The notes: generated by a model not told the origin, from the letters alone. Positions 856 through 48,891 are shown, counted from the first letter of the stretch. The stretch: DNA of 64,000 nt from the human T2T-CHM13v2.0 reference genome, Homo sapiens (GCF_009914755.1 NC_060926.1), one strand, 5' to 3'. Numbers and translations are program-made.

Positions 856-910
<55 letters not shown>

Positions 911-2867: not shown

Positions 2868-2892
2868 ACACACACACACACACACACACACA
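2868..2892. repeat. (CA)12 microsatellite
   Basis: Direct reading. Confidence 0.95.
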
Positions 2893-10971: not shown

Positions 10972-13420
10972 ATATCTTTGATAATATGTTTTTCTAGAAA
11001 CCTTGTGTTTGAATCTTGGTGCTTAATTTAAGGTTAAGTCCCAGCCAAACAAATCTGTACAATCAACAGACCTATTTAGCATCTACAAAGCTTGTCAGTA
11101 ATACAACTCTACGAAGTCAAGATGAAATCTCTTCAAAATTAAAAATCTAGAAAAAAGAAAAATGTAGGGCTGTAATTTCATTCCACTTATAAGTTAAATG
11201 CTTTGCCATTTCTAAAATTTCACATTTCAATTAAGCAAATGAAGTATAGTAACAATTTTATAGAGCAAGAAACTTGCGATTGATCTTCAATACTCCTAAG
11301 AACATATATATAGAGATGGCATGAATTATTAGCCAATTTTCACCAACTCCACCAATGTTTACCAATTCTCACAAGAAATCTAAATTTCTAAAGATGGAAT
11401 GTGGCAATATTCCTTCCAATTTAATTGCATAGGATGAATGTTTTAAATGGAACTTGGCAGAATAAGTTATTCTATCAAATCAATGTCAATCCTTTTTAAA
11501 AATCCTTTTCCTTATTCTTCTGCATCGTACCACCCAAAAGAAGGTTATTTATGGTTTGGTAAAAGTCCTGAACTGCAGAATAGATAGGGAAAGACTGCTT
11601 TTCAGATAAACCAGTATAGAGTCCTTATTCTTAAGAAAAGGTAAGATTAAATTTTCAAAAGAAAATATGCTTAGTCAAACAAACAAAACAAAACACAGAT
11701 TTAAGTTGTTTTAAGGGCTACCCTTATGAGTTCATTTAACGACATGAAATATACCTTTAACAACACGCAGTACACTTTTAGATGGATTACAAGTGCTATC
11801 TACTACAGAAGGGTTCAATAATTGAAATGATTAGAAAACATAATCATTAGGGAAAATATAATCAATAGGGAAAGAATTCCTAGCAAAGGAATAAAGTTCA
11901 TTTGTGTTAACCTGGGCACACATGAACTTTCCAATGCAAGACCACTGAAAAAATTCTTTCTTGGATATGAAGGATATTAATTTGCTACTAGATCACTATC
12001 TTTCAGTAAAATAAGTATCCCAACAAAACACATCTCAATAAGTGTAACACTAACAACATTAGAATTAACATAAAATAGATATTAATCAAAACACTTTGCT
12101 CCCTACAAACATCAGAAGATGGATATTATAATCCCTGCTTTGCTTGATTTCATTGTGATATTGTACTCGACACTACTTATCACTATAGTATAACAACAAA
12201 GAGATGTAAAGACACTGGAAGGCTCTCTCAGGAAAATCTGTTCTCTCTGCCCATCCCCTCCCCCTTTTTGGTTTGTTTTCTCTCACTTTCAGTAGGAGAA
12301 ATTTCATATTTAAAGAGCATGCATTCACCATTTGGCATATCATATGCCATTATCGTAAGAGTTAACTATTTTCGAACTGTATTTATATATTTATTTTTCT
12401 TCCCTGAAATTTCTAAATGTCCAGTGCTTCAACCAACATAATCATTCATTTTAACGTCGTTTGTTGTACTGAAGATATTATAGTCAGCCTCCCTCCCTCT
12501 CTCCCTCCCTCCTTTCCCCCCAGAAATTGTTCATAGAGTCAAATTTTCTGGTTTGCTTTTGGTGAGTTGAGTGCAACACACTTTCCTAGGCAAAGGGGGA
12601 ACAGCCCTCTAAATATCAACTCTCAGTCGAAGAATCACTTAACAACTGGGTACTTCATATTACTACATGAGCACAGTGCCACTGTAAAGTACCACGAGGA
12701 AGAATAAATTTTTCCTTCTTTTCTCTGACCTGCTCCCTGACAACTAGACACGTGGACAGAACCTTATTTCTCTCTCCATCACTGTATCAGTGGGGTACAG
12801 GGTTTGTTTAATAAGGATGTAAAATAAAACCGGACTTGAACTACAAAAGGGCTGGATGGCCTTTCCCATGTTGGCATAACACTGAAGAAGCAGGATTGGT
12901 TATGAAGTCATAATTTAGCATTGGCATTTAAGCAGAAACATTAACTTATATTGTCACAAAACACAATGTCACATAAAAGCCACAAAAATATTTTCAGCCA
13001 GCCCTGGTAGCCAAGAAATTATTTTCAGGGTGTTTCCTTTTTGGGTTTTCCCAATTTGTACTCAGAAACGAAGTTAGAGACCTATTGTGATGTTTTAAAT
13101 ATTCCTTTTCTGAGTATATACCATGTGATTCAAAATAGAAGACCAATTTCTCAGCCTGTCTTAAGTCATCTGATAAACTGTGTCCCATCACTCATTTTAT
13201 CATAGTCACAATGTAGTTAAAATGTGTAAATGTATAAAAGTAAAAATAAAATTCTGATGTAAATAAATTTAAGATCTCTGTGTGCAGAGCATATTGATAA
13301 CTGGCACCCAAGCAAAGACTGATATCTTGAAAGGGATCTTGTATAAAAGCTATTCCATTCCTTGCATGCTATTTAATTTAAAAAATGATGCACAGACTCA
13401 CATTCATAAACACACTGAAC

Positions 13421-13446
<26 letters not shown>
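13421..13446 (-). repeat. (GT)13 tract 20 nt downstream of the exon 2 donor; intronic splicing regulatory element
   Basis: (CA)13 on the + strand. I recall a polymorphic GT repeat in NCX1 intron 2 being described as a splicing activator (not checked here). Confidence 0.9.
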
Positions 13447-13452
<6 letters not shown>

Positions 13453-13465
13453 ATATAGAACTTAC

Positions 13466-15273
13466 ACAATTTCATCATTCTGGAATTCGAGCTCTCCACA
13501 AGTGTCCTCAAAATCCTCCCCTCCACCTCTGGCAGTCCCTTCGATGGTTTTATATGGAACGATAACATTTCCTCGAGCTCCAGATGTTCTCAATACTTTC
13601 ACCTCCATGATGCCAATGCTCTCACTCACATGAGTCACAGGTTCCTCAAAAGTAAAAATGCCTGCGTGGTCATCATCAAAAATAGTTACAGTGGCAGTGG
13701 AGGGAGATCCGAGGCAAGCAAGTGTAGAAACATGATTGGCTTCCAGTATGCCATCTTCTGAAGCTTCAGAAGATACTTTGACATTGCTGAGATGCACAAG
13801 GAAATTTTCATCCTCCTCAAAGATATCATCATCTATGATACCCACTCTGATTTCCTTCTGGGTATCACCAGGCTTAAACACCACAGTTCCTTCAGTAAAT
13901 TCATAATCAGACCCAGCATTTGCTGTGCCATCCTCTGTTCTGAAGTCAACAAACACAGTGTTAGTCAAATCACCACCTCTGCGGATAATGGTAAGGGCCA
14001 CAGTACCACAGTTCTCCAGACACTGATATGTCCCTTGTTCAAAGAAGATCTTACTAACAGGGTCATTTTCAGTCACTTCAGTGTTGACCTCGTGCATGCT
14101 GACAGCCTTCCTTGCTTGGTCAGCTGCATGCCTCTTTAAAATGTTGCCAGCTCCAGTCATGAGGCGAGTAGCTTGAATGCGATAAAATGCTCTACTTTTT
14201 TGCTGCTGACTTAGGACTTGGTAGTTAGCTAATTCTATTAATTGCTCTATTTCTTTATCTGGATGCTTCTGCTTAAGTTCCTTCAGAATCCTAGCCATTT
14301 CTCGCCTAGCTTCTTCATCATCTTGGTCCCTCTCATCCACCTCCAGAACCAGAGCACCATCTAAGAAATTTTCAACATGAGAATTGACCACTTTCCCGTC
14401 CATTTCAATTTCAGTCTTAGAAGATGGCCTGTCTCCTTCATGTTCAATAATCATCCCCCTCTGCTTGCCAGCTCGATACCTCTTGTAGACATACTTGTAA
14501 AACAGAAGTCTCCTATCCGCTACCCAAGCGAACACAACACAGATGGGAAAGAAGAAGAAAGTAAGCAAACCTTCCCAGACCTCCACAACACCAGGAGATA
14601 TGACAGACAAAATAATGTAAAGCCAGGTGTAGGCAAAGATGCTCCAGGCTGCTGTCACAAAGAAGACACGCAAATGCTTAATCTTCCTTGTCTCTCCGTC
14701 AGGCACCACATAAACACAGAGTGCAATAATGATGAACATATTGAATGCAGCACTTCCCACGATGGTGCTAGGACCGAGGTCTCCTGCAGTGAAGTTATGG
14801 CCACACACTTCAATTACTGAAAGGAGAATCTCAGGAGCAGAAGATCCCAGGGCCATCAAGGTCAGGTTAGAAACTGTTTCATTCCAGATCCTCACAGTTG
14901 TCTTGGTGGTCTCTCCATTGGGTTTCTTTATGGTTATTTCTTTTTCTTGAGATGTGATGACTTCTATAGAGGACATGAACCGATCAGCTATGATAGAGAC
15001 TCCAAGAAACATGTAGACCATGGCCACAAAATACACAGTAGCTCTAGCAATTTTGTCCCCAAAAGAAGGGTCTTGGGGTTCCCAAATGGGCAAAATCACC
15101 CCTTTCTTACAGTAATATGATCCAGTACATTCACCAGTTTCATTTCCTTCTCCTTCCATTTCTGTCTCAGCAATTACATGGTCCACATGGGAAAATAAGA
15201 GACTCACAGTAACTAACAGATGAAATCCCATTGAAAAGGTGGGTGAAAGACTTAATCGCCGCATGTTGTACAT
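13466..15273 (-). CDS. SLC8A1: Sodium/calcium exchanger 1 (NCX1), coding part of exon 2 (602 codons + 2 nt; CDS continues in exons beyond the left end of the window)
   Basis: Translation begins [20 protein letters not shown] (signal peptide) and contains alpha-1 repeat [35 protein letters not shown] and Calx-beta acidic motifs [11 protein letters not shown] and DDDHAG. The ORF-track start at 15291 is a GTG; the first ATG is at 15273. Donor ATTGT|gtaagt at 13466/13465. Confidence 0.99.
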
Positions 15274-15297
15274 GACACTTCCAACTGTCACAACCTA
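13466..15297 (-). ncRNA. SLC8A1: Exon 2 (1832 nt, or 1829 nt from acceptor 15294); source of the back-spliced circular RNA circSLC8A1/circNCX1
   Basis: Polypyrimidine tract then ttttacCAG|TAG|GTTG acceptor (15300-15295); donor gtaagt (13465-13460). Circularisation of this exon is established knowledge, not visible in DNA. Confidence 0.9.
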
Positions 15298-15392
15298 CTG
15301 GTAAAAATAAGATGGGGGAGAGGGCAGAAAAAAAGTCATGTCATTAGAGCTGCAGCCAAAGCATTACTAATTACTTATTTTTATTACTCTTA

Positions 15393-15456
15393 CCAAAATT
15401 TGTTTATATTTGACCATCACAAAACCGAAATTTGTTTATATTTGACCATCACAAAA
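15393..15456. repeat. 32-bp tandem duplication (one mismatch)
   Basis: cc(a/g)aaatttgtttatatttgaccatcacaaaa x2. Confidence 0.95.
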
Positions 15457-17164
15457 TCTATGGTGAATGATTGTTCTAAGACTCCATCAGTGACTAAGCA
15501 ATCCTTTGTAAAGTTTACAACTCAATCTTTCTGTGAATTTACTACATGTAGTACCCATTCACTGAGCAAGATACACAATTGACTTACTGGAAAGGAAAAG
15601 TTCAATTTATATAGCCTTGCCTTATTAAACACACATTTATGCATGCTAATAGCCAAAATCACAGGACTTTTGAAGCATTAAACAATTTCCTCCTTTTTAC
15701 TAAAGCAGATTTTCTTCTAAATTTGTGTTAGTACATCATCTTCCAAAAACGGTTTCAATGCCAAAAGCACCTTATTACAATTGATGCTTTGAAAATCAGA
15801 CTCCGAAAAAATCCCACCAACACAAGGCCTGGTGATTATCTTAAACGCCAGAGAGCATCTTACACTGTATTTCATGAAATCATGTCCTATTGCTCCACAC
15901 TTACTTGGAAACAAAACTTCAAGCTTGCCTGAAATCAAAGCTCAATGGCATTTGTTCTTGAGGAGAAAAAAATTCTGCTATAATGCAATATTTCCACACA
16001 TTAAGTACAGTTTTTAAAAGCATGTTTTGATGAGAGCACATTTCTTTCTAATTTTCAGCCAGCCCAGGTCTGCTGATACATTAGCAGCTGGGCATCTGGT
16101 TCTTCAAGCACAGCTCTTCACATCTGTGTACAGAGCCTGTTTTTCTGCAGGCTGGAAAGGGAGATAAACAGGCCAAGGCCTAGTTGTGGGTAAGCGCCTG
16201 GCAGGCTGTGGAATCAGCGTCACCAACCTTAAAATGTTCCTTCTCGGTGTCGGTCATATTTTCCATGGTCATTCTAAAATACATATTAGTTCTGTCGAGG
16301 GTTCAAGTGACCAAAAAATGCAGGACCAATAATTCCATTTAAATTAGCTCATGTGGCATGACAAGAGTGACCACAAAATATACACATGATGAAGGACTGT
16401 AGGCAAGGAGGGCCATGGCAACAGAGTCAGTGAGCAGCACACAAAGCTTGGTAGGCATAGCAGTGGACTCAACCACCATGGCCTTAAGTCCACCCACCAG
16501 CTCAAGCAAAACTCTACTCAGACCTTACATCCCTTCTGCTTCCAGAACCTGGGATGGAGGTGAGGGGAAACTGAAGTAGAGGAAGGTCTGCTCCAAGTCA
16601 AGGTGACTGTCTCCCAGGCCTTGCAGGATGGACTAGTTATGACATCAGATAAAGCAGCAATAGGAAGAAGCCCTGAGTCAGAACATACCCTTATGTCCTG
16701 GAAAAAGTTAAAAGAGGAACTGGATTACAGGCTTTCATAGCTTCGGGCTGGCTGAGAGCCACCCCACATTCGCCTACACTCTCTGGCTCATGTTTGCTGC
16801 TGATGGCTTATACTGCAAACTGCACCAGTGCCCAGGAGAACACCGCTGCCTAGGACATTCTGGCAGACCCTGAGAGATCCCACCATAGACTAAAGCCCTT
16901 TATAGCTCATCACTACAGGGAGATAAGCTTCTTTGACATTTTTCCCATACTAAAGAAAATCAGAGGAGGGTTATAGCAGTAGAATTCAAAACTAAGTAAA
17001 AGGCTGAAAAATAGAGGTAGCATATTTTCAAAATATGCAAAAGTTCTGGTCAGTATGTCTGCTTGTTCAGTCTTTGAAAGGCTTTGAGATTTCTGCTTGA
17101 AACAAGGTGAAATTTAACCATCCTGCAAGAATGTTGGAAGATCTAGTTCCAACTCCCTTGTGTA

Positions 17165-17850
17165 TCCATTTCATCCACAATATTTATGCATGCTTAATAT
17201 GTATTTTAGAAAGACTTACTAGTCTGTCTTCTAGATCCTGAGAATTCACCAGTGATAAAACAAAGTCTCTGTCCTCACAGAGCTTATATTCTAATGGTGG
17301 AGGAAACAAACAAATATAAATATCAGAAGGTTAAAAACTCCTATGGTACATGTGTGTGCAGAACAATCTATAGAGGACAAGGAGAGTGTGAGATTGTGTG
17401 TGTGTGTGTGTGTGTGTATGTGTCAGTGTGTATACACGTGGGATGCATGATTTCATACTAGATGGTTAAGGAAGGCCTCTCTGATAAGGTAACACTTGAG
17501 CAAAGTCCTGAAGGACACGAAAGATCAAGTTTTGTGGATATCTGTAGGAAAAGAATTCCAGCAAGTGCAAAGGTCCTAATGGGAATCATGCTTGGCACAG
17601 TCTAAAAACACAGAAAACCAATGTAGCAAGAGGGTAATGGACCAAGGGGGCAGGGCTCAGGAGTGGGAATGGATCAGAGAACACTGAATTGCCATAAGGC
17701 ATGGGCTTTGATGGGGTAGAAGATGAGAATCACTGGGAGGTTCTAATCAGAGGGTGATATGATCTGATTTTTCTTTTAGAAGGATCTCTCTGCTGGTTCA
17801 GTGCAGAAAAGACTGAAGGGGCAAGGGTGGAAACAAGGAGACCAGATTTT
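17165..17850 (-). mobile_element. L2 3' region containing a (TG)n tract at 17395-17431
   Basis: ctctgtcctcacagagcttatattctaatgg and ggaaggcctctctgataaggtaacacttgagc are L2 antisense hallmarks. Confidence 0.75.
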
Positions 17851-18099
17851 GCCTACTATATAAAATCTAATTTATAAGTGATCCCAATACTTGGCAGGTA
17901 TACAAAATGGTACAGAAGATATTTAACATTTAAAATGGTGAAAGAAATGTCTTGGGGACCTGAAAGAATCAGAAAGGTGAAATATTTGTGATAAATAGTA
18001 GTACTGAACATAAACACTGAAGGGAGATTCAAACCTGTGTCTGTCTCCAAGACTGATATAACTAACCACTCCCTTCAAATTACTGCCAAATCGCATCAT

Positions 18100-18330
18100 T
18101 CCATTCTTCACGTTTCAGCCAAAATGAAATTCCTAAAGTGCAGATCTGACACTCTTCACGTCCCTTAAAACTCTTCATTGGTTTCCCACTTCCCTGAGGA
18201 CAAAGCTCAAACCCCTCAACAGGCTTTCTAAGACCTTTTATGATCTGGCATCTGAGCTCCAGAATATGGAAATTATTCCCATTCCCTGAACAAGGTAACA
18301 ATTTCTTACATCCAAGTCTTTGCAGATTAT
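18100..18330 (+). mobile_element. L2 fragment
   Basis: cccttaaaactcttcattggtttcccac...aagctcaaacccctcaac. Confidence 0.6.
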
Positions 18331-18589
18331 TCTGTGTCCAAAACTATTTTGCTTTTTCCTTCTTAGAAGCAAGTTTCAAAAGAGCTGAACACCAAATTAT
18401 AACCAATTTCCTGAGAGAATACTAGATTCCATTCTTAAACAGTCACAGATACCATGCTAAATTGTCTCTATACATATCAATTATATTTAATATTTCCATT
18501 AGCCAGCATTGCTGTTATAAAATGCCTAGTGTTGCTATTTCCATTATAGTCCATGAGAACAGCACCCCTGGAGATGTGCAATGCACAGT

Positions 18590-20714: not shown

Positions 20715-21062
<348 letters not shown>

Positions 21063-23855: not shown

Positions 23856-25639
23856 GTGTAAGGCAGAAAGAGCAGAACTGAGTAGAAGCACAGGAACAGC
23901 ACACAGGGCATGGGGCTTGTTTAGCAAACAGACTGGAAGTGCGTGTCTGAAAATCAGAAAACAGTGTTTGTTCTAATATCAGTAAGATGTTGATGTTAAG
24001 TAATATGTCAGCTGTGCTTTCCCTCTCACAGACTGGGTCTCCAGGCAGGATCAAAATATGAAGCCCCGTAGTGAATATGTGTCCAGGAGGTGGGGGACTA
24101 GAGGGCAGAGGAGGACAGATCTTAATAGGAGAAAAGAGGGGCCCCAAAAGGGAGATTAAAGCACTGGAGGTAATATAAAGTTCCTACTTCATGATGTTGC
24201 TGCAGGTGTTTTGTCTTCTCTAAGAAGAAACAAGCAAGGATTACTAGGTCACTACATTGGCAGGTGACAAAGACTTAGGATAAAGGGACATCTTCAGAGA
24301 CCTATTCAGTTTCTATATCCAAACCCTAAGTAGAGGTAGAAAACATGCAGAAACATGAACCCCAAAATGAAGTACTGGGTGGTAAGGAAAGCTGTGCTCT
24401 TCAAATGACAAGTTCTTTAGGGGGCAGCCCCTACTCTTTTTCTTCATTTCAACTCAAGAACGAATCCCTGTGGTCACTCTTTCTTCTTTCTAGTCTGCCT
24501 CTTGGAACTGGGGATGTTTAATACAGAAACCAATCTCAAGTTGAATGACAGTCAATCCAGCAAGATTTTTTTCTTTTTTATTTTTTAATCTTTTTTAACA
24601 AGGTAAATGCTGGTTGTGTGAGCAGAGGCTGGTGAATTTCATCAGCTTTTTCAGTGAGTCATTAAGATTCATCTTCAAGTAGATAGCATTTCAGAAGACA
24701 GAATCCTATCAACTTGAGGTTTTTAAGTCTTAGATTTTCCTGCATAGTTTCAAATTACAGTCCTTGAAAGAATAAGCTCTTCTTGAAAAGAGTGGAAGTA
24801 GGAAGTAAAAAGAAACATATTTTAAAAAGTCAAGGTGATGGGTGCTCACATAAGGGTGACTCTCCATCAGTGTTGTATGCTACAATTTTCTAAAGTTCCT
24901 GACAATATACTCAGTGACAAAGTTCTAACACCAAGTGTCTATTTACATATTACAATATTGTATAGTATATATTACCTATTACAATACACTTTAAAAATGA
25001 AACTCACCTTAGAAAGAAACTAGTCAAATCTTATTATTTAGAGGACCAAAGGGAGTGTTGGTGACATGGGAAAACACAACATTCTTACAGAAATCTAGTA
25101 GAGAAATACATGGTTTTTCTCTACTAGCTAGGGCATCTAGTGAATATGTTCTTTAAACCAATCTTATATACCTGTGTTTGAAAAATTATTAAAATTGGCT
25201 TAAGTGGTATGGTTTTAACGTTAGTAACTATGCTGACACTGCTAGATTATTGTCTTTTGGTGACAGATGAGGATTATAATAGATGTGAATTTATCTATCA
25301 CAAAGGTGGTCCTAAAAGGAGCCATTGAAAAAGGTAGAGAAAAAAGTCACTGGAGGAAGAAATTCTATTTAATAATTTAATTAGCAATTGAAGATAATTT
25401 CTATCTATGAAGCCTTTGCTAATGCAACAATTATTTTCATCAATATCAATGATTAATAGGAGAACATTCATTCATTAAAAAAAATCAAACGTCTTTTATG
25501 TATATAGCAAAGTGCGAGGCACTGGGGCTAGAACCATGAGATAGACAGACGTAATCTCTCTCCTTAAGGAACTTATTACCTAGCTGGGAAGACAGATGAC
25601 AGATGTTCATTTAAATTACTACCCAAAATCCATAATTAT

Positions 25640-28267
25640 GTCCATCACATAAACAGAACCAATGACAAAAACCACATGATTATCTCAATAGACGCAGAAA
25701 AGGCATTTGATAAAATTCAACATCGCTTCATGTTAAAAACTCTCAATAAACTAGGGATTGATGGGACATCTCAAAATAATAAGAGCTACTTATGGCAAGC
25801 CAATAGCCAATATCATACTGAATGGGCAAAAGCTGGAAGCATTCCCTTTGAAAACTGGCACAAGACAAGGATGCCCTCTCTCACCACTGCTGTTCAACAT
25901 TGTATTGGAAGTTCTGGCCAGGGCATTCAGGCAAGAGAAAGAAAAAAAGGGTGTTCAAACAGGAAAAGAGGAAGTCAGATTGTCTCTGTTTGCAGATGAC
26001 ATAATTCTATATTTAGAAAACCCCAGTGTCTCAGCCCAAAAACTCCTTAAGCTGACAAGCAACTTCAGCAGTCTCAGGAAACAAAATGGATGTGCAAATA
26101 TCCCAAGCATTCCTATACACCAAAAATAGAAAAGCAGAAAGCCAAATCATGAATGAATTTCCATTCACAATTGCTATAAAAAGAATAAAATATTTGGGAA
26201 CATAGCTTACAAGGGACGTGAGGGACCTCTTCAAGGAGAACTACAAACCACTGCTCAAGGAAATAAGGGAGGACAGAAATGGAAAAACATTCCATGTTCA
26301 TGGATAGGAACAATCAATATTGTGAAAGCAATTTATAGATACAATGCTATTCCCATCAAACTACCATTGACTTTCTTCATAGAATTAGAAAAAAAAAAAA
26401 ACTACTTTAAGTTTCATATCGAACAAAAAAAGAGCCTGTACAGCCAAGACAATCCTAAGCAAAAAGAACAAAGCTGGGGGCATCACACTACCTGACTTCA
26501 AACTATACTACTACAAGACTACAGTAATCAAAACAGTACGGTACGGGTACCAAAACAGACATTATAGACCAATAGAACAGAACAGAGACCTCATAAATAA
26601 CACTACACATCTACAACCATCTGATCTTCTACAAACCTGACAAAAACCAGCAATGGGGAAAGGATTCCCTACTTAATAAATGGTGCTGGGAAAGCAAGCT
26701 AGCCATATGCAGAAAACTGAAACTGGACCCCTTCCCTACACCTTATACAAAAATTAACTCAAGATGGACTGAAGACTTAAATGTAAAACTTAAAACCATA
26801 AAAACCCTAGAAGAAAACCTAGGCAATACCATTCAGGGCATGGGTATGGGCAAAGACTTCATGACTACATCACCAAAAGCAATTCCAACAAAAGCCAAAA
26901 TTGACAAATGGGATGTAATTAAACCAAAGAGCTTCTGCATAGCAAAAGAAACTAGCATCGTTTTCTTAATCCAGTCTATCATTGTTGGACATTTGGGTTG
27001 GTTCCAAGTCTTTGCTATTGTGAATAGTGCCGCAATAGTGGTGGGGTGGGGGGAGGGGGGAGGGATAGCATTAGGAGATATACCTAATGCTAAATGACGA
27101 GTTAATGCGTGCAGCACACCAGCATGGCACATGTATACATATGTAACTAACCTGCACATTGTGCACATGTACCCTAAAACTTAAAGTATAATAATAATAA
27201 AATAAAATTAAAAAAACAAACAAATGTATAAATCTTTTTACTAAAAGTGATAATTCAAAAAAAAAAGAAAAAAGAAAAAGAAACTAGCATCAGAGTGAAC
27301 AAGCAACCTACAGAATGGGAGAAAAACTTTGCAATCTACCCAATCTGACAAAGGTCTAATATCTGGAATCTACAAGGAACTTAAATTTACAAAAAAAAAA
27401 AAAAAGAAAAAACATCAAAAAGTGGACAAAGGATATGATATGAACAGACGCTTATCAAAAGAAGTCATTTATGCAGCCAACAAACATATCAAGAAAAGCT
27501 CATCATCACTGATCATTAGAGAAATGCAAATCAAAACCACAATGAGATACCATCTCACACCAGTCAAAATGGCAATTATTAAAAAGTCAGGAAACAATAG
27601 ATGCTGGTGAGGCTGTGGACAAACAGAAATGCTTTTATACTGTTGATGGGATTATAAATTAGTTCAACCATTGGGGAATACAGTGTGGCAATTCCTCAAG
27701 GATCCAGAACCAGAAATACCATTTGACCTAGCAATCCCATTACTGAGTAAATACCCAAAGGAACAGAAATCATTCTACTATAAAGACACATGTACACATA
27801 CGTGTATTGCAGCAATATTTACAATAGCAAAGACTTGGAACCAACCCAAATGCCCATCAACGAGAGGCTGGATAAAGAAAATTTGGTACATAGACACCAT
27901 GGAATACTATGCAGCCATAACAAGGAGTGAGATCATGTCCTCTGCAGGGACATGGACGAAGCTGGAAGCCATCATCCTCAGCAAACTAACATAGGAACAG
28001 AAAACCAAACACCACACGTTCTCACTCATAAGTAGGAGTTGAACAATGAGAACACATGGACACAGGGAGGGGAACAACACACACTGGGGCTTTCTGAGGG
28101 GTTGGGGGCAAGGGGAGGGAGAACATTAGGACAAATACCTAACGCATGCAGAGCTTAAAACCTAGATGACAGGTTGATAGGTGCAGCATACCACCATGGC
28201 ACATCTATACCTATGTAACAAACCTGAACACTCTGCACATATATCCCAGAACTTAAAGTAAAAAAAG
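25640..28267 (+). mobile_element. 5'-truncated L1PA7/8-like LINE-1 (degenerate ORF2 RT/C-terminal region and 3' UTR), inserted in an L2
   Basis: ORF2 fragments [37 protein letters not shown] and LFADD, with frameshifts; TSD aaatccataattat at 25626-25639 and 28268-28281. Confidence 0.95.
26960..27275 (+). mobile_element. Nested short L1PA3-like insertion with 5' inversion and 3' transduction
   Basis: TSD aaaagaaactagcatc at 26944-26959 and 27276-27291; inverted piece 26960-27037; sense 3' UTR from 27038; two A-tails. Confidence 0.92.
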
Positions 28268-29047
28268 AAATCCATAATTATTAACTCGAATAAATGGCTA
28301 TGGAAGTAAAAATGTGACTATAAAACTAAGTAACAGAGGACTTCACCTACCAGAGTATTAGAAAAAGTTCAGCTGAAAAATAACATCTAAGCTGAGATTT
28401 AAAAGACATTCTGCAGGAAACCAGCCAAAAGGTTGTTGAATTGTAAGGTCTTAGGTGGACACTTTTGTAATTACCCTTCTCTGTAACAGGATTATTCACA
28501 GACGTACCTTCTTAGATATGCTGGGGTATGAGATCATGTTTGGAAGGGACAAAAAGTAGCTTCTATAATTTATACAAGACTTTTTCTCTCTGAGGTCAGA
28601 GCCATGCAACTGCATTTAATTGCATTCTACCACACTTATAGGGTCAATGTGGTAGATGGAAGGTTCACTGGTCTAGGGACTAAAAGAAATGAGTGCTGGT
28701 CTCAGCTCTACTGACCAGTCATATGTCCTTGGAGAAGTCATTTTCCCTCTCTTAGTATCATCTGTAAAACTGGGAAATTCTGCTAACAATCTGCAGCTGT
28801 GATATTCGAATCCTACACTTTGGCATTCAGTGCCATCTATAATATAACACCTGTCCATCTGTGCAGGTTTACTGTTAGTCAATATATCAGCTAGTAGTCA
28901 GCTGAGCTACTAAATGAAAATTACCCAAATATGTACCACATCATCTTTTCTAATGCTTTGATGGTTATCTTCCATGACCCATCTCAAATGTCAAATTTCC
29001 CTTATAAAACTACTTTGATTGCTAGGAAGGCCCTTAAACGTCATCTA

Positions 29048-32900: not shown

Positions 32901-35344
32901 AAACTCACTAGGAAGTTTCAGGTAAGGTGGAAATGTGATTCACTTAAACTTTTGTCTTGTTACTGTCTACACTCTTGGCTGGGCAGATCAAAGGACAATC
33001 ACAAATGTAAATTTAAAACACCTACTGTTCAATATAGTCTCTGCAAAGAGAACTTACAAAAATCACTTGAGGCAGCAAGGACTACGAGCAACTGTCTTAT
33101 AAGTCAATGCACTGGAAAATACATCAGAAAATGGACTGTTTGATTAATAAGTACTACTGAGAACCTAGTCATTGATTAGGTCTTCAAAATATATATTGTG
33201 TAAAACGTATTTTGTAATGTATATGTGTGCATGGAGGACTGGGGATGGAAGGTGACAGAGTGGGGAGGCCAGGGAGAGAAAGAGAGAAAAAGAGATTTTG
33301 GAAGAGGAAGAAAGAAAACCGAAAGTAATCCCGCTGCACTTAATGAGGCCCCATTGGACTAGTCCTGAATCCAAATCTGAATCTCAAAGGCAGACGCTGA
33401 AAGCTCACATTCTCAGAATCTAGTCCATCCCAATGGGTCAGAAAACACCTGATATTTATTTCCACTAAATCTCAGCTATATCTCTAGGGAACAGAAATAC
33501 CTTCGTTTAAAAAGAAAAGTGGAAACAGCTAGTACAGAAATCCACTGGTTTTGTTAGCCACCTTTACTACCAAGAATTAGAGCCAAAGTGATAGACAGCT
33601 AAGGGAACCATAAGTGATGTCAGATAGGATTCTGGAACCCAGAGAAAGTCAGGCAGAACGTTTGCCACAAGAGGGAGCAGTAGAATTTGGTCAGATGGGA
33701 GACCATTTGGTAGGGGTTATGATGAGGGGTGTATGAGGTATGGGAGGTTATGATGAAGGATTTAACTACAAGTATGGGTGATATTTGGATAATATTTTAG
33801 CAAAACACATTTATCCTTGGGGGCAAAAACAAAAAGATAAAGGGACCAGGAAGAGTAGAGAGATAATAGCATGTTGATTCCTAAATTCTTAGCAAATATA
33901 AAGTGACAATTTAATGTTTACTTGAAAGCAACATACTACGAAAATATAAAACATGCAACATATGTGCTCTAACAGCCTCTTCTAGAGGCTGCATTTCTTT
34001 TTCCAGATCTAATTTATATTTCAGTTTGAATTTTGTTTATTGCCATATTTTTAGGGCAATCTCCTTCTTATCTATATACTATCCTCCCTGTACCTAAAAG
34101 GCATCACAAAGAAAGAACTTGTCTCACTGAATTGCAACATTAAAAAAAAAAAACAAAAAACAAAAAACAACAACAAAAAAAAACACACAGACATTAATGT
34201 CCCAAAATGCACTTACTTTGAGACAACCACATCTATGAGCTAAATGAATGCCTTGGCTGGCTTTTTAAAGGGGAATTGCAACTTCCTTGGATCTGCACAG
34301 CTTTTCTCATCATTTATTTTGTCAAAGAAATAGATTGAATACTAAGAGGAATCATGTGTTTATTTTGCAAGTAAATAAAAGTCTATATTTGCCTGGCAAA
34401 AGCATGTTAAACATAGCTTTTTAACAGATGCTGAAGTTCTCTTGGAATATATTTTATTTTTTCAAAACACAGAAAGCTTAACAGAGCAATTAACATAATT
34501 CCTGCAAATAGTCCTATAGATGTTACTGACTATACCTCACTTTCCATTTGTAATTTTATTGGGAGTCAAAGCACTGTTACTCCCATGCTCTTTTCTTCCC
34601 CTGGTCAACAAAAGGGCTATGTGCTTAATCTGAAACGTTACAGTAGGAACCACTATATAATAATATTAAAGTAAAGACATAGGTAGATAGATACATAGAA
34701 AATAAGCCTTCATATTTTAGTTCATTACTCTCCTCCTTCAGCCCTGTTAAGCTTTCAAGACAGTAAAGTCTGATTATCATGACACTCTTACATCCTTTGT
34801 AGCCCTATACAGCTCAACAATAAATAATGGTTTATCTCTGTTCAGTCCTTTTTGTTGCTGTTGTTTTTCTAGGAATTAATCATTTTTTTAAAAAAAGACA
34901 ACAACCATTTTAAGGGGACAAAATCAGGGCTTCTTTTATAGCAGGTGTGAGAAATCTTAGCTAAAGAGCCGTGAGATCCAAATGGAATTCTTCAAGCAGG
35001 CAGAATTTGTAAAACGAAAACCATTTAAGAGCACACATCTTGCCTCTTGATGAAATAAGTTGGTCCTCCCCCACCTTCTCACTCACAAGGCCCCAAAGAT
35101 GGAGCTAGTTTTCCCTTCCTTCCTCCTGCTTTCACACCCGCCTAACCTCCCAATTAAGCAAGTTTAGCAAACCCAGGGAGCTCAATCCAAGTAACACAGG
35201 ATTTGAAAGAGGAACCTAAAACCAATCATCCCTCTTCCGGCTTTGTCTTCTTATTTGAAATGAATGAAACATCTAGATTCATTTTCCTTTTTTTTTCTGA
35301 CTCGCTGCAGGAGTAGCTTTGAGAGAGAAAGAGAAAGCATGTGA

Positions 35345-35378
35345 GTGTGTGTGTGTGTGTGTGTGCACGCGCGCGCGC
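35345..35378. repeat. (GT)10-GCAC-(GC)5 alternating purine-pyrimidine tract
   Basis: 34 nt of uninterrupted alternation. Confidence 0.95.
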
Positions 35379-36731
35379 TGGTGGGGGCATGGGAAACAGA
35401 GGTATACTTTCAGAATTCTCTCCTGGTGGCTCCCTCTTTCCCTTGGGAAATCTTCGCACAAGTCTCAGATTGTGCATGTTCAACTGCTCATATCTGGAGA
35501 TACTCCAGCAATGCCTTTAACCAGATCTGATCAGAAATCTCCACCTACTCAGCTAGAGGCTCCTCCATGATCAGGACGCTTGTACTGTCTTCACCACATC
35601 TGTCATTTTTTAAAAAGCTTCTTCCACTACACCTCCCACTGATATCCTTTTTTTCTCTTTTTAGTCTTTACACCTCCAGCAGGACAAAGTTTGTATTGTT
35701 ATATTCACAACCACTAGTAGCTGACTAGCAGGAGAGAGAGAGAGCGGCTTCAGGAGAGCCAGGTTCGGGGGCTTCAAAAGGATACCTAGCGCAAAGCATG
35801 ACTTTCCAATGACTGCGTACAACATGCACATTGCTCTCTTCTAAAAATGCTTTGTTAAATTTCATCACCCCTGTTCTCAACTCAACCACTACCACTTTGG
35901 AGAGGGAAATACAAATTGCCAGCCCAAGCCATTCATCAAACAGCAACAGAATCCACGGGGTGGTGGGGGGGATAGAGAAGAGGCGGGGGTGATGCAGGGG
36001 GTGGATTTAAAGAATCAAGGATGCACACGTACTGTATTTTCAAGAGCATCGCCTGGGCGGATTTGGTTTCTTTGGCCGGCTGTCCAGCTATAAGACCGCC
36101 CTCTTCTTCATTAAGGAGGAGCCAAAAAGGATATCTTCACATCTCAGAACACAGACCATTTCCCCCAAGAGCCAGCAAAGCTCCAGAGGCAGAGAATGCA
36201 GCTGCAAAGTTCCCTTCCAATCTCTTGGGGAAAGATGCCTGTGTGTGCAGAATCCCCAAAGCACACCACGGCACAGTGCCCAGAGACGTGGACCCCGCAG
36301 CCCACTCCCTGCTACCCCCTACATTTCTTCCTCGTCTGTCTCTGCCCCGCCACACCTCCCTCCTCTCCGCAGTCCGTGGTGAATGAGCACCCAACGCCCG
36401 CTGGAAAACAGGGGGCTCGGAAATGTGGCCTTGGGGAAAGACCCCAGGGATTACCGGAAGGAGGGATGTCCGCGGAGAAGAGTCCAGTGGGTGGGGACGC
36501 CTGGATCCCCAGCAGCTCTGCATTCGGGGTGGACTTAGCTCTTCGCGCCCTGAATCCTCAGAGCCCAGCGCGGTGCAGGGTGCAGCATCTCTCCTTAGCA
36601 GCCCTTTCTTCCTCCGGCAGCCTGCACTGGCAGGCAGGCAGGCACCCTCACGCCCAGACGCACCAGCCCGAGCAATTTCACTCTGGGAAGCGCGGACACC
36701 CAGAAAAATGTGCAGGCGCGCACACACCACA

Positions 36732-36732
<1 letters not shown>

Positions 36733-36774
<42 letters not shown>
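36733..36774. repeat. (CA)21 microsatellite (UG in the pre-mRNA), about 120 nt after the first-exon donor
   Basis: Direct reading. Confidence 0.96.
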
Positions 36775-36892: not shown

Positions 36893-37100
36893 CTGGTTTG
36901 GGGAGTGTGAATGGATTCTTCCTCCGTTCCTCCACGCTAGTAGAAAATACGGCGCACTCCCTCCTTTTAAACAGCTCCCGATCAGGAAGAGGTCGCTCCC
37001 ATCTTCTGTGGGAAGCACAAAGCAGGCGGCGGCGGCGGGCTGACTACCGTGCAGCGCCGGCGCGAGCGGGAGCCGCGGCAGCGGGCAGCGGTGCGCGCGG
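36893..37100 (-). other. SLC8A1: Non-coding alternative first exon of SLC8A1 (GC-rich, brain/ubiquitous-type promoter); TSS end approximate
   Basis: Donor CAG|GTAGGA at 36893/36892 at the edge of the CpG island, followed by a (UG)21 tract. NCX1 is known to use several untranslated first exons spliced to exon 2. Confidence 0.7.

Positions 37101-41026: not shown

Positions 41027-41370
<344 letters not shown>

Positions 41371-48825: not shown

Positions 48826-48891
<66 letters not shown>

What the first reader, a model, noticed from the sequence alone, without database searches (positions are those of the whole stretch)
13383..17453. Non-Alu microsatellite clamp bracketing the circularising exon
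Seen: + strand 13407-13446 (taaacacactgaaccacacacacacacacacacacacaca) matches the reverse complement of 17395-17434 (tatacacactgacacatacacacacacacacacacacaca) at 36/40 without gaps, and one mismatch is a G-U pair in RNA. The match includes the non-repeat interruption acacactga in register, and an outer block aaatgatgca (13383-13392) vs aaatcatgca (rc of 17444-17453) adds 9/10. In the pre-mRNA these form a nested stem, one arm 20 nt after the donor and the other 2.1 kb before the acceptor. Established: reverse-complementary intronic matches promote back-splicing; UG repeats bind TDP-43/CELF and CA repeats bind hnRNP L. Inference: this duplex helps drive circSLC8A1, tunable by repeat length and RBP competition. 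I know no description of it. Caveat: CA/TG repeats are common, so only the flanking matches are informative.
Basis: partly seen in the sequence, partly recalled or inferred. Interest (0 to 1): 0.8.

Follow-up and report, generated by a model that had tools for sequence, protein, structure and literature searches.

The report
CA/UG microsatellite pair around circSLC8A1 exon
Two ordinary CA/TG microsatellites in opposite orientation sit on either side of the SLC8A1 exon that makes a very abundant heart circular RNA and could pair as RNA to loop that exon out, but whether this pairing helps make the circle is untested.

Summary
Window 13407-13446 matches the reverse complement of 17395-17434 at 36/40, one mismatch being a G-U pair. 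The outer 9/10 block exists but is offset by 5 nt. In the minus-strand pre-mRNA this is an imperfect (CA)n 2,098 nt upstream of the exon 2 acceptor and a (UG)13 starting 20 nt after the GTAAGT donor.

It is the most proximal reverse-complementary match between the two flanking introns, with a summed distance of 2,118 nt; the next lies at 12.7 kb. It forms in the MFE fold of the 4.2-kb segment. Duplex energy is about -64 kcal/mol for the 40-nt arms and -78 with flanks.

The flank evidence is mixed:
- By alignment, 6-9 of 105 real CA-array pairs do as well.
- By energy, 4 of 156 foreign-flank combinations do as well.
- A pure CA array at 855-895 matches the upstream arm better, 41 nt at 92.7%.
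- Longer UG arrays, including one 119 nt after the exon 1 donor, pair more strongly with the CA arm.

No paper found describes this pair. AC/GT bridging of splice sites and simple-repeat matches beside circRNAs are known. My verdict is a plausible but unproven helper, a new member of a known kind.

The parts
13466..15297 (-). SLC8A1 exon 2 (1,832 nt), the circularising exon of circSLC8A1; holds the start codon
   Evidence: Hub annotation (exon 13466-15297, coding from 15273). Stagsted 2019 Table lists chr2:40655612-40657444 SLC8A1 as an AUG circRNA.
13460..13465 (-). Exon 2 donor, GTAAGT in the pre-mRNA
   Evidence: Read directly.
13421..13446 (-). Downstream arm core: (UG)13 in the pre-mRNA, starting at intron position +20
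   Evidence: TRF (CA)13 with 100% matches; sequence; paired to 17395-17420 in the MFE.
13370..13420 (-). Degenerate flank of the downstream arm, including the shared CACACTGA stretch (13410-13418) and the outer block 13383-13392
   Evidence: Adding the flanks takes the duplex from -43.1 to -77.5 kcal/mol.
17395..17431 (-). Upstream arm: imperfect (CA)18 in the pre-mRNA (pure over 17395-17417), 2,098 nt upstream of the exon 2 acceptor
   Evidence: TRF (TG)18.5 with 82% matches; (I13).
17432..17460 (-). Outer flank of the upstream arm, including block 17444-17453
   Evidence: 9/10 with a 5-nt register shift; paired in the MFE.
36721..36774 (-). Competing (UG)27 array in intron 1, starting 119 nt after the exon 1 donor; a stronger predicted partner of the CA arm
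   Evidence: TRF; sequence; duplex with the CA arm -93.7 kcal/mol against -84.8 for the cross-exon pair; the repeat finder I11, I15, I16, I18.
35340..35365 (-). Second (CA)n array in intron 1, 1.4 kb from the 36721-36774 UG array; a possible decoy partner for that array
   Evidence: TRF; I12; duplex -90.7 kcal/mol; sequence.
859..909 (-). (UG)25 array 12.6 kb into the downstream intron; an alternative cross-exon partner of the CA arm
   Evidence: TRF; I4-I10; 41 nt at 92.7%; duplex -96.3 kcal/mol.
2868..2892 (-). (UG)12 array 10.6 kb into the downstream intron; a weaker alternative partner
   Evidence: TRF; blastn; duplex -59.9 kcal/mol.
36893..37079 (-). Exon 1 of NM_021097.5; its donor competes with the exon 2 donor for the exon 2 acceptor
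   Evidence: Hub annotation; donor context read.

Best explanation
Two independently arisen, ordinary CA/TG microsatellites lie in opposite orientation on either side of SLC8A1 exon 2. In the pre-mRNA the upstream one reads as an imperfect (CA)18 and the downstream one as (UG)13. They can zip into a 26-bp perfect helix, extendable to about 60 bp with bulges, that loops out the exon with only 20 nt and 2.1 kb of intron. That would bring the exon 2 donor near its own acceptor. I judge this duplex to be at most a facultative, probably lineage-specific helper of back-splicing, possibly a neutral passenger, and not the main cause. The main cause is more likely the conserved architecture: a 1.8-kb AUG exon with a consensus donor, a 21.6-kb upstream intron and a downstream intron of about 250 kb. 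With that architecture the exon 2 donor waits a long time with no partner except its own acceptor. Shown here: the complementarity, the positions, the rank as nearest match and the predicted stability. Inferred: that it forms in cells against RNA-binding-protein occupancy and competing partners, and any effect on the circle.
For: The geometry and complementarity are real. It is the nearest inverted match between the introns, at a summed distance of 2,118 nt, with the next at 12,670 nt. It forms in the MFE of the 4,161-nt segment. Energies are -43.1 for the core, -64.1 for the 40-nt arms and -77.5 to -78.3 kcal/mol with flanks. For only a helper role or none: circSLC8A1 is a top-10 circle in both human and mouse ENCODE data. 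AUG circRNAs as a class have distal inverted Alus, very long flanking introns and DHX9 insensitivity (Stagsted 2019, passages). [quoted passage not shown] The 213 kb of that intron examined holds no complementary (CA)n RNA array within 126 kb. CA/TG arrays are common, 15 in 264 kb. Flank similarity is matched by 6-9 of 105 random array pairs. Other UG arrays bind the CA arm more strongly, at -93.7 and -96.3 kcal/mol. HNRNPL binding to AC repeats and TARDBP binding to GT repeats scale with repeat length (STR-splicing preprint, passages). Twelve UG repeats can fold into a pUG quadruplex (abstract in the listing).
Against: Several results favour a real role. Only 0.8% of random 1,832-nt placements in the 264 kb are bracketed this tightly. 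The flanks add more stability than 152 of 156 foreign-flank combinations and all 500 shuffles. [quoted passage not shown] The Stagsted minigene maps to 13354-15770 by its primers, so it holds the whole UG arm but lacks the CA arm. Its figure legend reports effective circle expression when an artificial inverted element was added. That shows this exon responds to intron pairing. Human fetal heart shows a circle at 2-5 times the linear RNA, against a ratio of 0.23 in rat heart, which leaves room for a human-specific booster; the methods differ between those figures. Conservation of the arms in rodents was not tested here because no non-human genome was available.
Confidence: 0.5

Rival explanations
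1. One reading: the CA:UG duplex is a principal driver of circSLC8A1. Its strength is set by the polymorphic repeat lengths and by competition from TDP-43/CELF on the UG arm and hnRNP L on the CA arm.
For: It is the nearest inverted match across the exon and pairs in the MFE. Its length is within the range sufficient in minigenes. The flanks add more stability than 152 of 156 control combinations. Only 0.8% of placements are clamped this tightly. The minigene lacking the CA arm was given an artificial inverted element for effective circle production. TDP-43 binding in flanking introns is enriched at circles that rise on TDP-43 loss (two 2026 preprints, passages).
Against: The circle is equally prominent in mouse and present in rat, while microsatellites turn over quickly (general knowledge, not tested here). 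AUG circRNAs as a class are DHX9-insensitive, and no association with other inverted repeat elements was seen. Stronger competing UG partners exist. Not every complementary pair supports circularisation, and stability is a poor predictor. SLC8A1 does not occur in the main text of either TDP-43 preprint (0 occurrences each). No paper links circQTL and SLC8A1.
Confidence: 0.2
2. The repeats act as single strands, not as a duplex. The (UG)13 at +20 is a TDP-43/CELF platform, or a pUG fold, that modulates use of the exon 2 donor. The (CA)n is an hnRNP L site. Any effect on the circle comes through splice-site kinetics or protein bridging.
For: HNRNPL-AC and TARDBP-GT binding scales with repeat length, and AC repeats are associated with exon skipping. 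A GT microsatellite downstream of BRD2 exon 3b correlates with its inclusion, and GT tracts in CFTR alter splicing. A pUG fold needs 12 repeats and this array has 13. TDP-43 binding near back-splice junctions is linked to repression of circles.
Against: No binding data for this locus were available here. The predicted duplex is far more stable than either arm folded alone, -78.3 against -8.1 and -9.6 kcal/mol. The pUG fold is not scored by the folding program.
Confidence: 0.15
3. A three-way pairing switch. The single CA arm 2.1 kb upstream of the exon 2 acceptor pairs either with the (UG)27 array 119 nt after the exon 1 donor, which bridges intron 1 and favours linear splicing, or with the (UG)13 array 20 nt after the exon 2 donor, which loops the exon and favours the circle. 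The (CA)13 at 35340-35365 acts as a decoy for the exon 1 array.
For: Both donors are followed closely by UG arrays. Predicted energies are -93.7 for CA arm x 36733, -84.8 for CA arm x 13421 and -90.7 for 35346 x 36733. AC/GT pairing across an intron enforces splice-site pairing in zebrafish, shown by RNase mapping and compensatory mutants.
Against: This is entirely post hoc. The CA arm is 2.1 kb from the acceptor, not within the 200 nt seen in fish. [quoted passage not shown] Repeats near promoters and in first introns are common (cites intron 1 examples).
Confidence: 0.07

Closest known systems
Reverse-complementary-match (inverted Alu) driven exon circularisation (Jeck 2013, Zhang 2014 as cited; Liang & Wilusz 2014, PMC4201285, passages)
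   Same: Inverted complementary sequences in the two introns flanking a circularising exon. The arm length (36/40) is within the ~30-40 nt shown sufficient. One arm lies right beside the 5' splice site, which was tolerated in the ZKSCAN1 minigene.
   Different: The arms are dinucleotide microsatellites, not Alus. They can slip register, have many alternative partners, and are prime binding sites for abundant single-strand RNA-binding proteins. There is no functional test at this locus.
(AC)m-(GT)n bridged introns of teleost fish (Lin et al. 2016, PMC4691745, passages)
   Same: The same chemistry: AC and GU dinucleotide runs pair to bring two splice sites together. Pairing was shown there by RNase mapping and compensatory mutation.
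   Different: There the pair spans an intron, lies within 200 nt of both splice sites (AC near the 5' splice site, GT near the 3'), promotes linear splicing, was not enriched across exons and is described as lost in humans. Here the pair spans an exon, the upstream arm is 2.1 kb from the acceptor and the polarity is reversed.
Simple-repeat reverse complementary sequences tabulated beside mouse cardiac circRNAs (Aufiero et al. 2018, PMC5959250, text passages and Supplemental Table S4 rows)
   Same: TG/CA Simple_repeat matches within 1 kb of back-spliced exons, including a different Slc8a1 circRNA (chr17:81807407-81844933), Ptprm and Prkce.
   Different: It is a catalogue only, in mouse and for other exons. 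The exon 2 circle is not in the tables I could search. The authors state that experiments are needed.
Alu-independent AUG circRNAs with long flanking introns (Stagsted et al. 2019, PMC6487579, passages, Tables)
   Same: circSLC8A1 is listed as an AUG circRNA. The locus has no nearby inverted Alus and has very long flanking introns. The paper calls the mechanism undisclosed.
   Different: That work measured distance to inverted repeat elements and found no association. It does not mention this microsatellite pair, whose summed distance of 2,118 nt would fall inside their 2,300-nt cut-off if it counted as an inverted element.
UG/CA microsatellites as splicing regulators through TDP-43 and hnRNP L (CFTR, eNOS, BRD2; cited)
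   Same: A polymorphic dinucleotide repeat lies close to a splice site, with length-dependent protein binding.
   Different: Those cases act on linear exon inclusion through single-stranded binding or self-structure, not through a cross-exon duplex.

Membership tests
RCM-dependent exon circularisation | Inverted complementary sequences, one in each intron flanking the circularised exon | tested here: met
   36/40 match; I13; top proximal inverted blastn hit.
RCM-dependent exon circularisation | Pairing long and stable enough, about 30-40 nt in minigenes | tested here: met
   A 26-bp perfect core. The 40-nt arms give -64.1 kcal/mol and the arms with flanks -77.5. 57 pairs form between 17395-17460 and 13370-13446 in the MFE. 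Threshold taken from the passages.
RCM-dependent exon circularisation | Cross-exon pairing favoured over pairing within one intron | tested here: inconclusive
   It is nearest by distance for both arms. But the CA arm is predicted to bind the intron 1 UG array at 36733-36774 more strongly, -93.7 against -84.8 kcal/mol.
RCM-dependent exon circularisation | Disrupting either arm lowers the circle and compensatory changes restore it | not testable with these tools
   Needs CRISPR or a minigene. The published minigene (13354-15770) lacks the upstream arm.
RCM-dependent exon circularisation | Evidence that the duplex exists in cells (editing, DHX9/ADAR binding, crosslinking) | not testable with these tools
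   No such data were held. As a class, AUG circRNAs show reduced DHX9 binding.
Inverted-Alu dependent circRNA | The arms are Alu elements in inverted orientation close to the exon | tested here: not met
   The arms are dinucleotide repeats. The nearest Alu-like inverted match, 20768-20842 against 992-1069, has a summed distance of 17.9 kb. A recalled Alu 5' motif matches only at 41027, 53788 and 60408.
(AC)m-(GT)n bridged intron (Lin 2016) | [quoted passage not shown] | tested here: not met
   In intron 1 the UG array lies at +119, but the CA arm is 2,098 nt from the acceptor. The polarity is the reverse of the fish class.
Alu-independent AUG circRNA with long flanking introns (Stagsted 2019) | The circle holds the annotated start codon and the flanking introns exceed 6,500 nt | tested here: met
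   Coding starts at 15273 inside the exon and the upstream intron runs 15298-36892 (hub annotation). The downstream intron is about 250 kb by the hg19 coordinates. It is listed as an AUG circRNA. Cut-off taken.

The most novel reading that the evidence does not exclude
The circle-to-linear choice at SLC8A1 exon 2 is set by a three-way microsatellite pairing switch. One (CA)n arm upstream of the acceptor pairs either with the (UG)27 just after the exon 1 donor, giving linear mRNA, or with the (UG)13 just after the exon 2 donor, giving the circle. The balance is tuned by polymorphic repeat lengths, by a nearby (CA)13 decoy, and by TDP-43, hnRNP L or pUG folding. That would make the output of the most abundant cardiac circRNA a heritable, STR-encoded trait.
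Probability: 0.07. Interest if true: 0.7.

Novelty: new member of a known kind. Interest (0 to 1): 0.4.

Why it matters
circSLC8A1 (the NCX1 exon 2 circle) is among the most abundant circular RNAs in human and mouse heart. It belongs to the Alu-independent AUG circRNA class, whose mode of production the field calls undisclosed. If this microsatellite pair contributes, it would give that open question a concrete, deletable element. It would also predict that common repeat-length variation alters the circle level. If it does not contribute, the locus becomes a clean example of a stable, proximal complementary pair being ignored by the splicing machinery. That would sharpen the case for intron length and kinetics as the real determinant.

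Tried and rejected
- Common origin or inverted duplication of the two arms: rejected. Similarity does not extend beyond about 60 nt, and the flank alignment score (12) is ordinary among real array pairs.
- Known structured RNA in 12500-18500: none at Rfam gathering scores.
- A PIN4-like pseudogene abutting the donor (hub annotation ends at 13459), which might have dated the downstream arm: the first of the three frames submitted for 12260-13459 has 20 stop codons and the family scan was not run. Nothing gene-like was seen by eye. Dropped.
- Mouse evidence from Aufiero 2018 supplements: the exon 2 circle (mm9 chr17:82047149-) does not appear in the circRNA or RCS tables. Only a differential-exon-usage row was found. 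So nothing was learned about mouse flanks.
The null sets therefore rest on 264 kb and 15 arrays.
- Earlier findings of this scan were not open to the session.
- Papers on FUS, cardiac circRNA resources, Parkinson's disease and TDP-43 cryptic circles were checked for a mechanism at this locus and gave none.
- Supplements of bioRxiv preprints were closed, so SLC8A1 could appear in their tables unseen.
Full report
**What is there**

SLC8A1 lies on the minus strand. Exon 2 (window 13466-15297, 1,832 nt) holds the start codon (hub annotation) and is the exon of circSLC8A1. That circle is listed as an AUG circRNA at hg19 chr2:40655612-40657444 in Stagsted et al. 2019 (supplementary table).

Read in the sense of the pre-mRNA, the donor is GTAAGT (rc of 13460-13465). 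After 13 nt of UA-rich sequence a perfect (UG)13 begins at intron position +20 (13446 down to 13421).

Upstream, 2,098 nt before the acceptor, lies an imperfect (CA)18 (17431 down to 17395, pure over 17417-17395).

**Check of the observation**

- 13407-13446 against rc(17395-17434) gives 36/40 without gaps. One of the four mismatches is a G-U pair.
- 13383-13392 against rc(17444-17453) gives 9/10, but this block is 5 nt out of register with the inner one.
- The repeat finder reports the pair independently (I13).

**Can it pair, and is it the nearest match?**

Energies:
- RNAduplex gives -78.3 kcal/mol for the two arm regions. Each arm folded alone gives only -8.1 and -9.6.
- Broken down: -43.1 for the pure cores, -64.1 for the 40-nt arms and -77.5 with 51-nt flanks.
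- An MFE fold of the whole 4,161-nt stretch from 17500 to 13340 contains the long-range helix, with 57 pairs between 17395-17460 and 13370-13446.

Rank among inverted matches:
- I ran blastn of the upstream intron (15298-36892) against 213 kb of the downstream intron, inverted hits only.
- This is the most proximal complementary match, at a summed distance of 2,118 nt to the two splice sites.
- The next hits are the same CA arm with UG arrays at 2868-2892 and 855-909 (12.7-14.7 kb), a 40-nt match at 26997/10932 (14.2 kb) and an Alu-like match at 20768/992 (17.9 kb).
- The strongest matches, over 1 kb at about 85% identity, lie more than 200 kb away.

No Rfam family matches the region. A recalled Alu 5' motif matches only at 41027, 53788 and 60408.

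**Is it more than chance?**

The core complementarity is that of any CA array with any TG array. In 264 kb (the window plus 200 kb fetched) there are 15 arrays of 8 or more units, one per 17.6 kb.

Against significance:
- The 5' flank local alignment score is 12. It is reached by 51 of 2000 shuffles and ranks 3 of 28 among window pairs.
- It is reached by 6 of 105 real array pairs in the same flank and 9 of 105 in either flank.
- A pure CA array at 855-895 matches the upstream arm over 41 nt at 92.7%, better than the reported 36/40. The "interruption in register" therefore carries little weight.
- TG and TA dinucleotides are generally enriched within 10 bp of TG repeats (primate TG/CA preprint, passage).

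For significance:
- In energy terms the real flanks do better than 500 of 500 mono-shuffles, all 26 single swaps with real flanks of other arrays (best -76.7 against -77.5) and 152 of 156 double swaps.
- Only 0.8% of random placements of a 1,832-nt segment in the 264 kb are bracketed this tightly. All of those placements lie within this same interval, so the figure is a local base rate and not an independent test.

I read this as suggestive but not decisive. The feature was also picked out after the fact.

**Competition**

In the pre-mRNA the window holds UG arrays at 48834-48879, 36721-36774, 13421-13446, 2868-2892 and 859-909, and CA arrays at 35340-35365 and 17395-17431.

| Pair | Predicted duplex energy (kcal/mol, 40-nt padding) |
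|---|---|
| CA arm x 860-909 | -96.3 |
| CA arm x 36733-36774 | -93.7 |
| CA arm x 48834-48879 | -92.8 |
| CA arm x 13421-13446 (cross-exon pair) | -84.8 |
| 35346-35365 x 36733-36774 | -90.7 |

The 36721-36774 array starts 119 nt after the exon 1 donor. It is transcribed before the CA arm. Pairing with it would bridge intron 1 rather than loop exon 2.

By distance the cross-exon pair is the nearest for both arms. The next complementary (CA)n RNA array downstream is 126 kb away.

Both arms are also classic single-strand protein sites. HNRNPL-AC and TARDBP-GT binding scales with repeat length (STR-splicing preprint, passages). Twelve UG repeats can form a pUG quadruplex (abstract in the listing).

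**What the literature adds**

For each paper I saw only the passages returned by term searches, plus the named supplementary rows.

- Stagsted 2019: AUG circRNAs, with circSLC8A1 among the top 10 in both human and mouse, have distal inverted Alus, very long flanking introns and DHX9 insensitivity. The mechanism "remains undisclosed".
- The same paper's SLC8A1 minigene primers (Table S8) map to 13354-13374, 15751-15770 and 15411-15430. The construct therefore spans 13354-15770. It contains the entire UG arm with its outer block but not the CA arm.
- The legend of its Fig. S11 speaks of effective circle expression when flanked by an artificial inverted element, a 360-nt inverted copy of 15411-15770. 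I could not see the figure. So this exon responds to intron pairing, and the UG arm with 473 nt of upstream intron was evidently not relied on. The natural pair has never been tested.
- Szabo 2015: the NCX1 circle runs at two to five times the linear RNA in human fetal heart. [quoted passage not shown] Not every pair supports circularisation, and stability predicts poorly.
- Lin 2016: AC and GT runs pair across zebrafish introns to enforce splice-site pairing, shown by RNase mapping and compensatory mutants. An "exon looping" arrangement was considered but was not enriched. The system is described as lost in humans.
- Aufiero 2018: about 10% of significant reverse-complementary sequences beside mouse cardiac circRNAs are SINE B2-B4, LINE or simple repeats. 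Table S4 lists TG/CA Simple_repeat matches for a different Slc8a1 circle, Ptprm and Prkce.
- Two 2026 preprints link TDP-43 binding in flanking introns to repression of circles. SLC8A1 does not occur in their main texts.

No search returned a description of this pair: circSLC8A1 with flanking intron, circRNA with dinucleotide repeat, SLC8A1 with microsatellite, TDP-43 with UG repeat, simple, GT or CA repeats, microsatellite with base-pairing, circQTL with SLC8A1 (0 papers) and NCX1 circular transcript. Subscription journals and closed supplements were not searched.

**Judgement**

The feature is real and is a legitimate candidate cis-element. The case that it drives the circle rests on geometry and predicted energy alone.

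Against a principal role:
- the conserved abundance of the circle in rodents
- the class behaviour of AUG circRNAs
- the commonness and rapid turnover of CA arrays
- stronger competing partners
- protein occupancy of both arms

For some role:
- the unusual tightness of the clamp
- the better-than-typical flank energy
- the proven sufficiency of such short pairs in minigenes

It is a new member of a known kind (complementary-match-assisted back-splicing, AC/GU bridging), not a new kind. The decisive data are cross-species alignment, arm deletion with compensatory rescue, and STR length against circle level. None of these could be obtained with these tools.

Noticed in passing
window 36721-36774: A (UG)27 array, as read in the pre-mRNA, starts 119 nt after the exon 1 donor. 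So both the exon 1 and exon 2 donors are closely followed by UG arrays, and this one is a stronger predicted partner of the CA arm than the exon 2 array.
   Followed up: partly
window 860-909 and 112.9 kb before the window start (C2:40311044-40311087, in L010): These two CA arrays lie in opposite orientation and share long flank similarity on both sides (local scores 37 and 42 over 60 nt). They probably sit in two copies of the same interspersed repeat.
   Followed up: no
window 15392-15456: A 32-nt unit is tandemly duplicated (2.0 copies, 96% matches) 95-159 nt upstream of the exon 2 acceptor, in the likely branch-point region. The published minigene's inverted-element primer lies inside it (15411-15430).
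   Followed up: no
window 15294-15297: A tandem acceptor is annotated (exons ending at 15294 and at 15297). It matches the minor circle isoform that is 3 nt shorter, reported at about 10% of the major one (Szabo 2015) and listed separately by Stagsted 2019.
   Followed up: partly
window 12260-13459: The hub table gives a PIN4-like pseudogene whose single exon ends at 13459, 6 nt from the donor and over the UG arm. The first of the three minus-strand frames submitted has 20 stop codons, and nothing gene-like was seen in the DNA. The span looks like an annotation artefact.
   Followed up: partly
window 25626-28270 and about 180-199 kb before the window start: There are long inverted matches between intron 1 and the distant downstream intron, up to 1,361 nt at 85%, probably LINE fragments. 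They are far stronger than the microsatellite pair but more than 200 kb from the exon.
   Followed up: no
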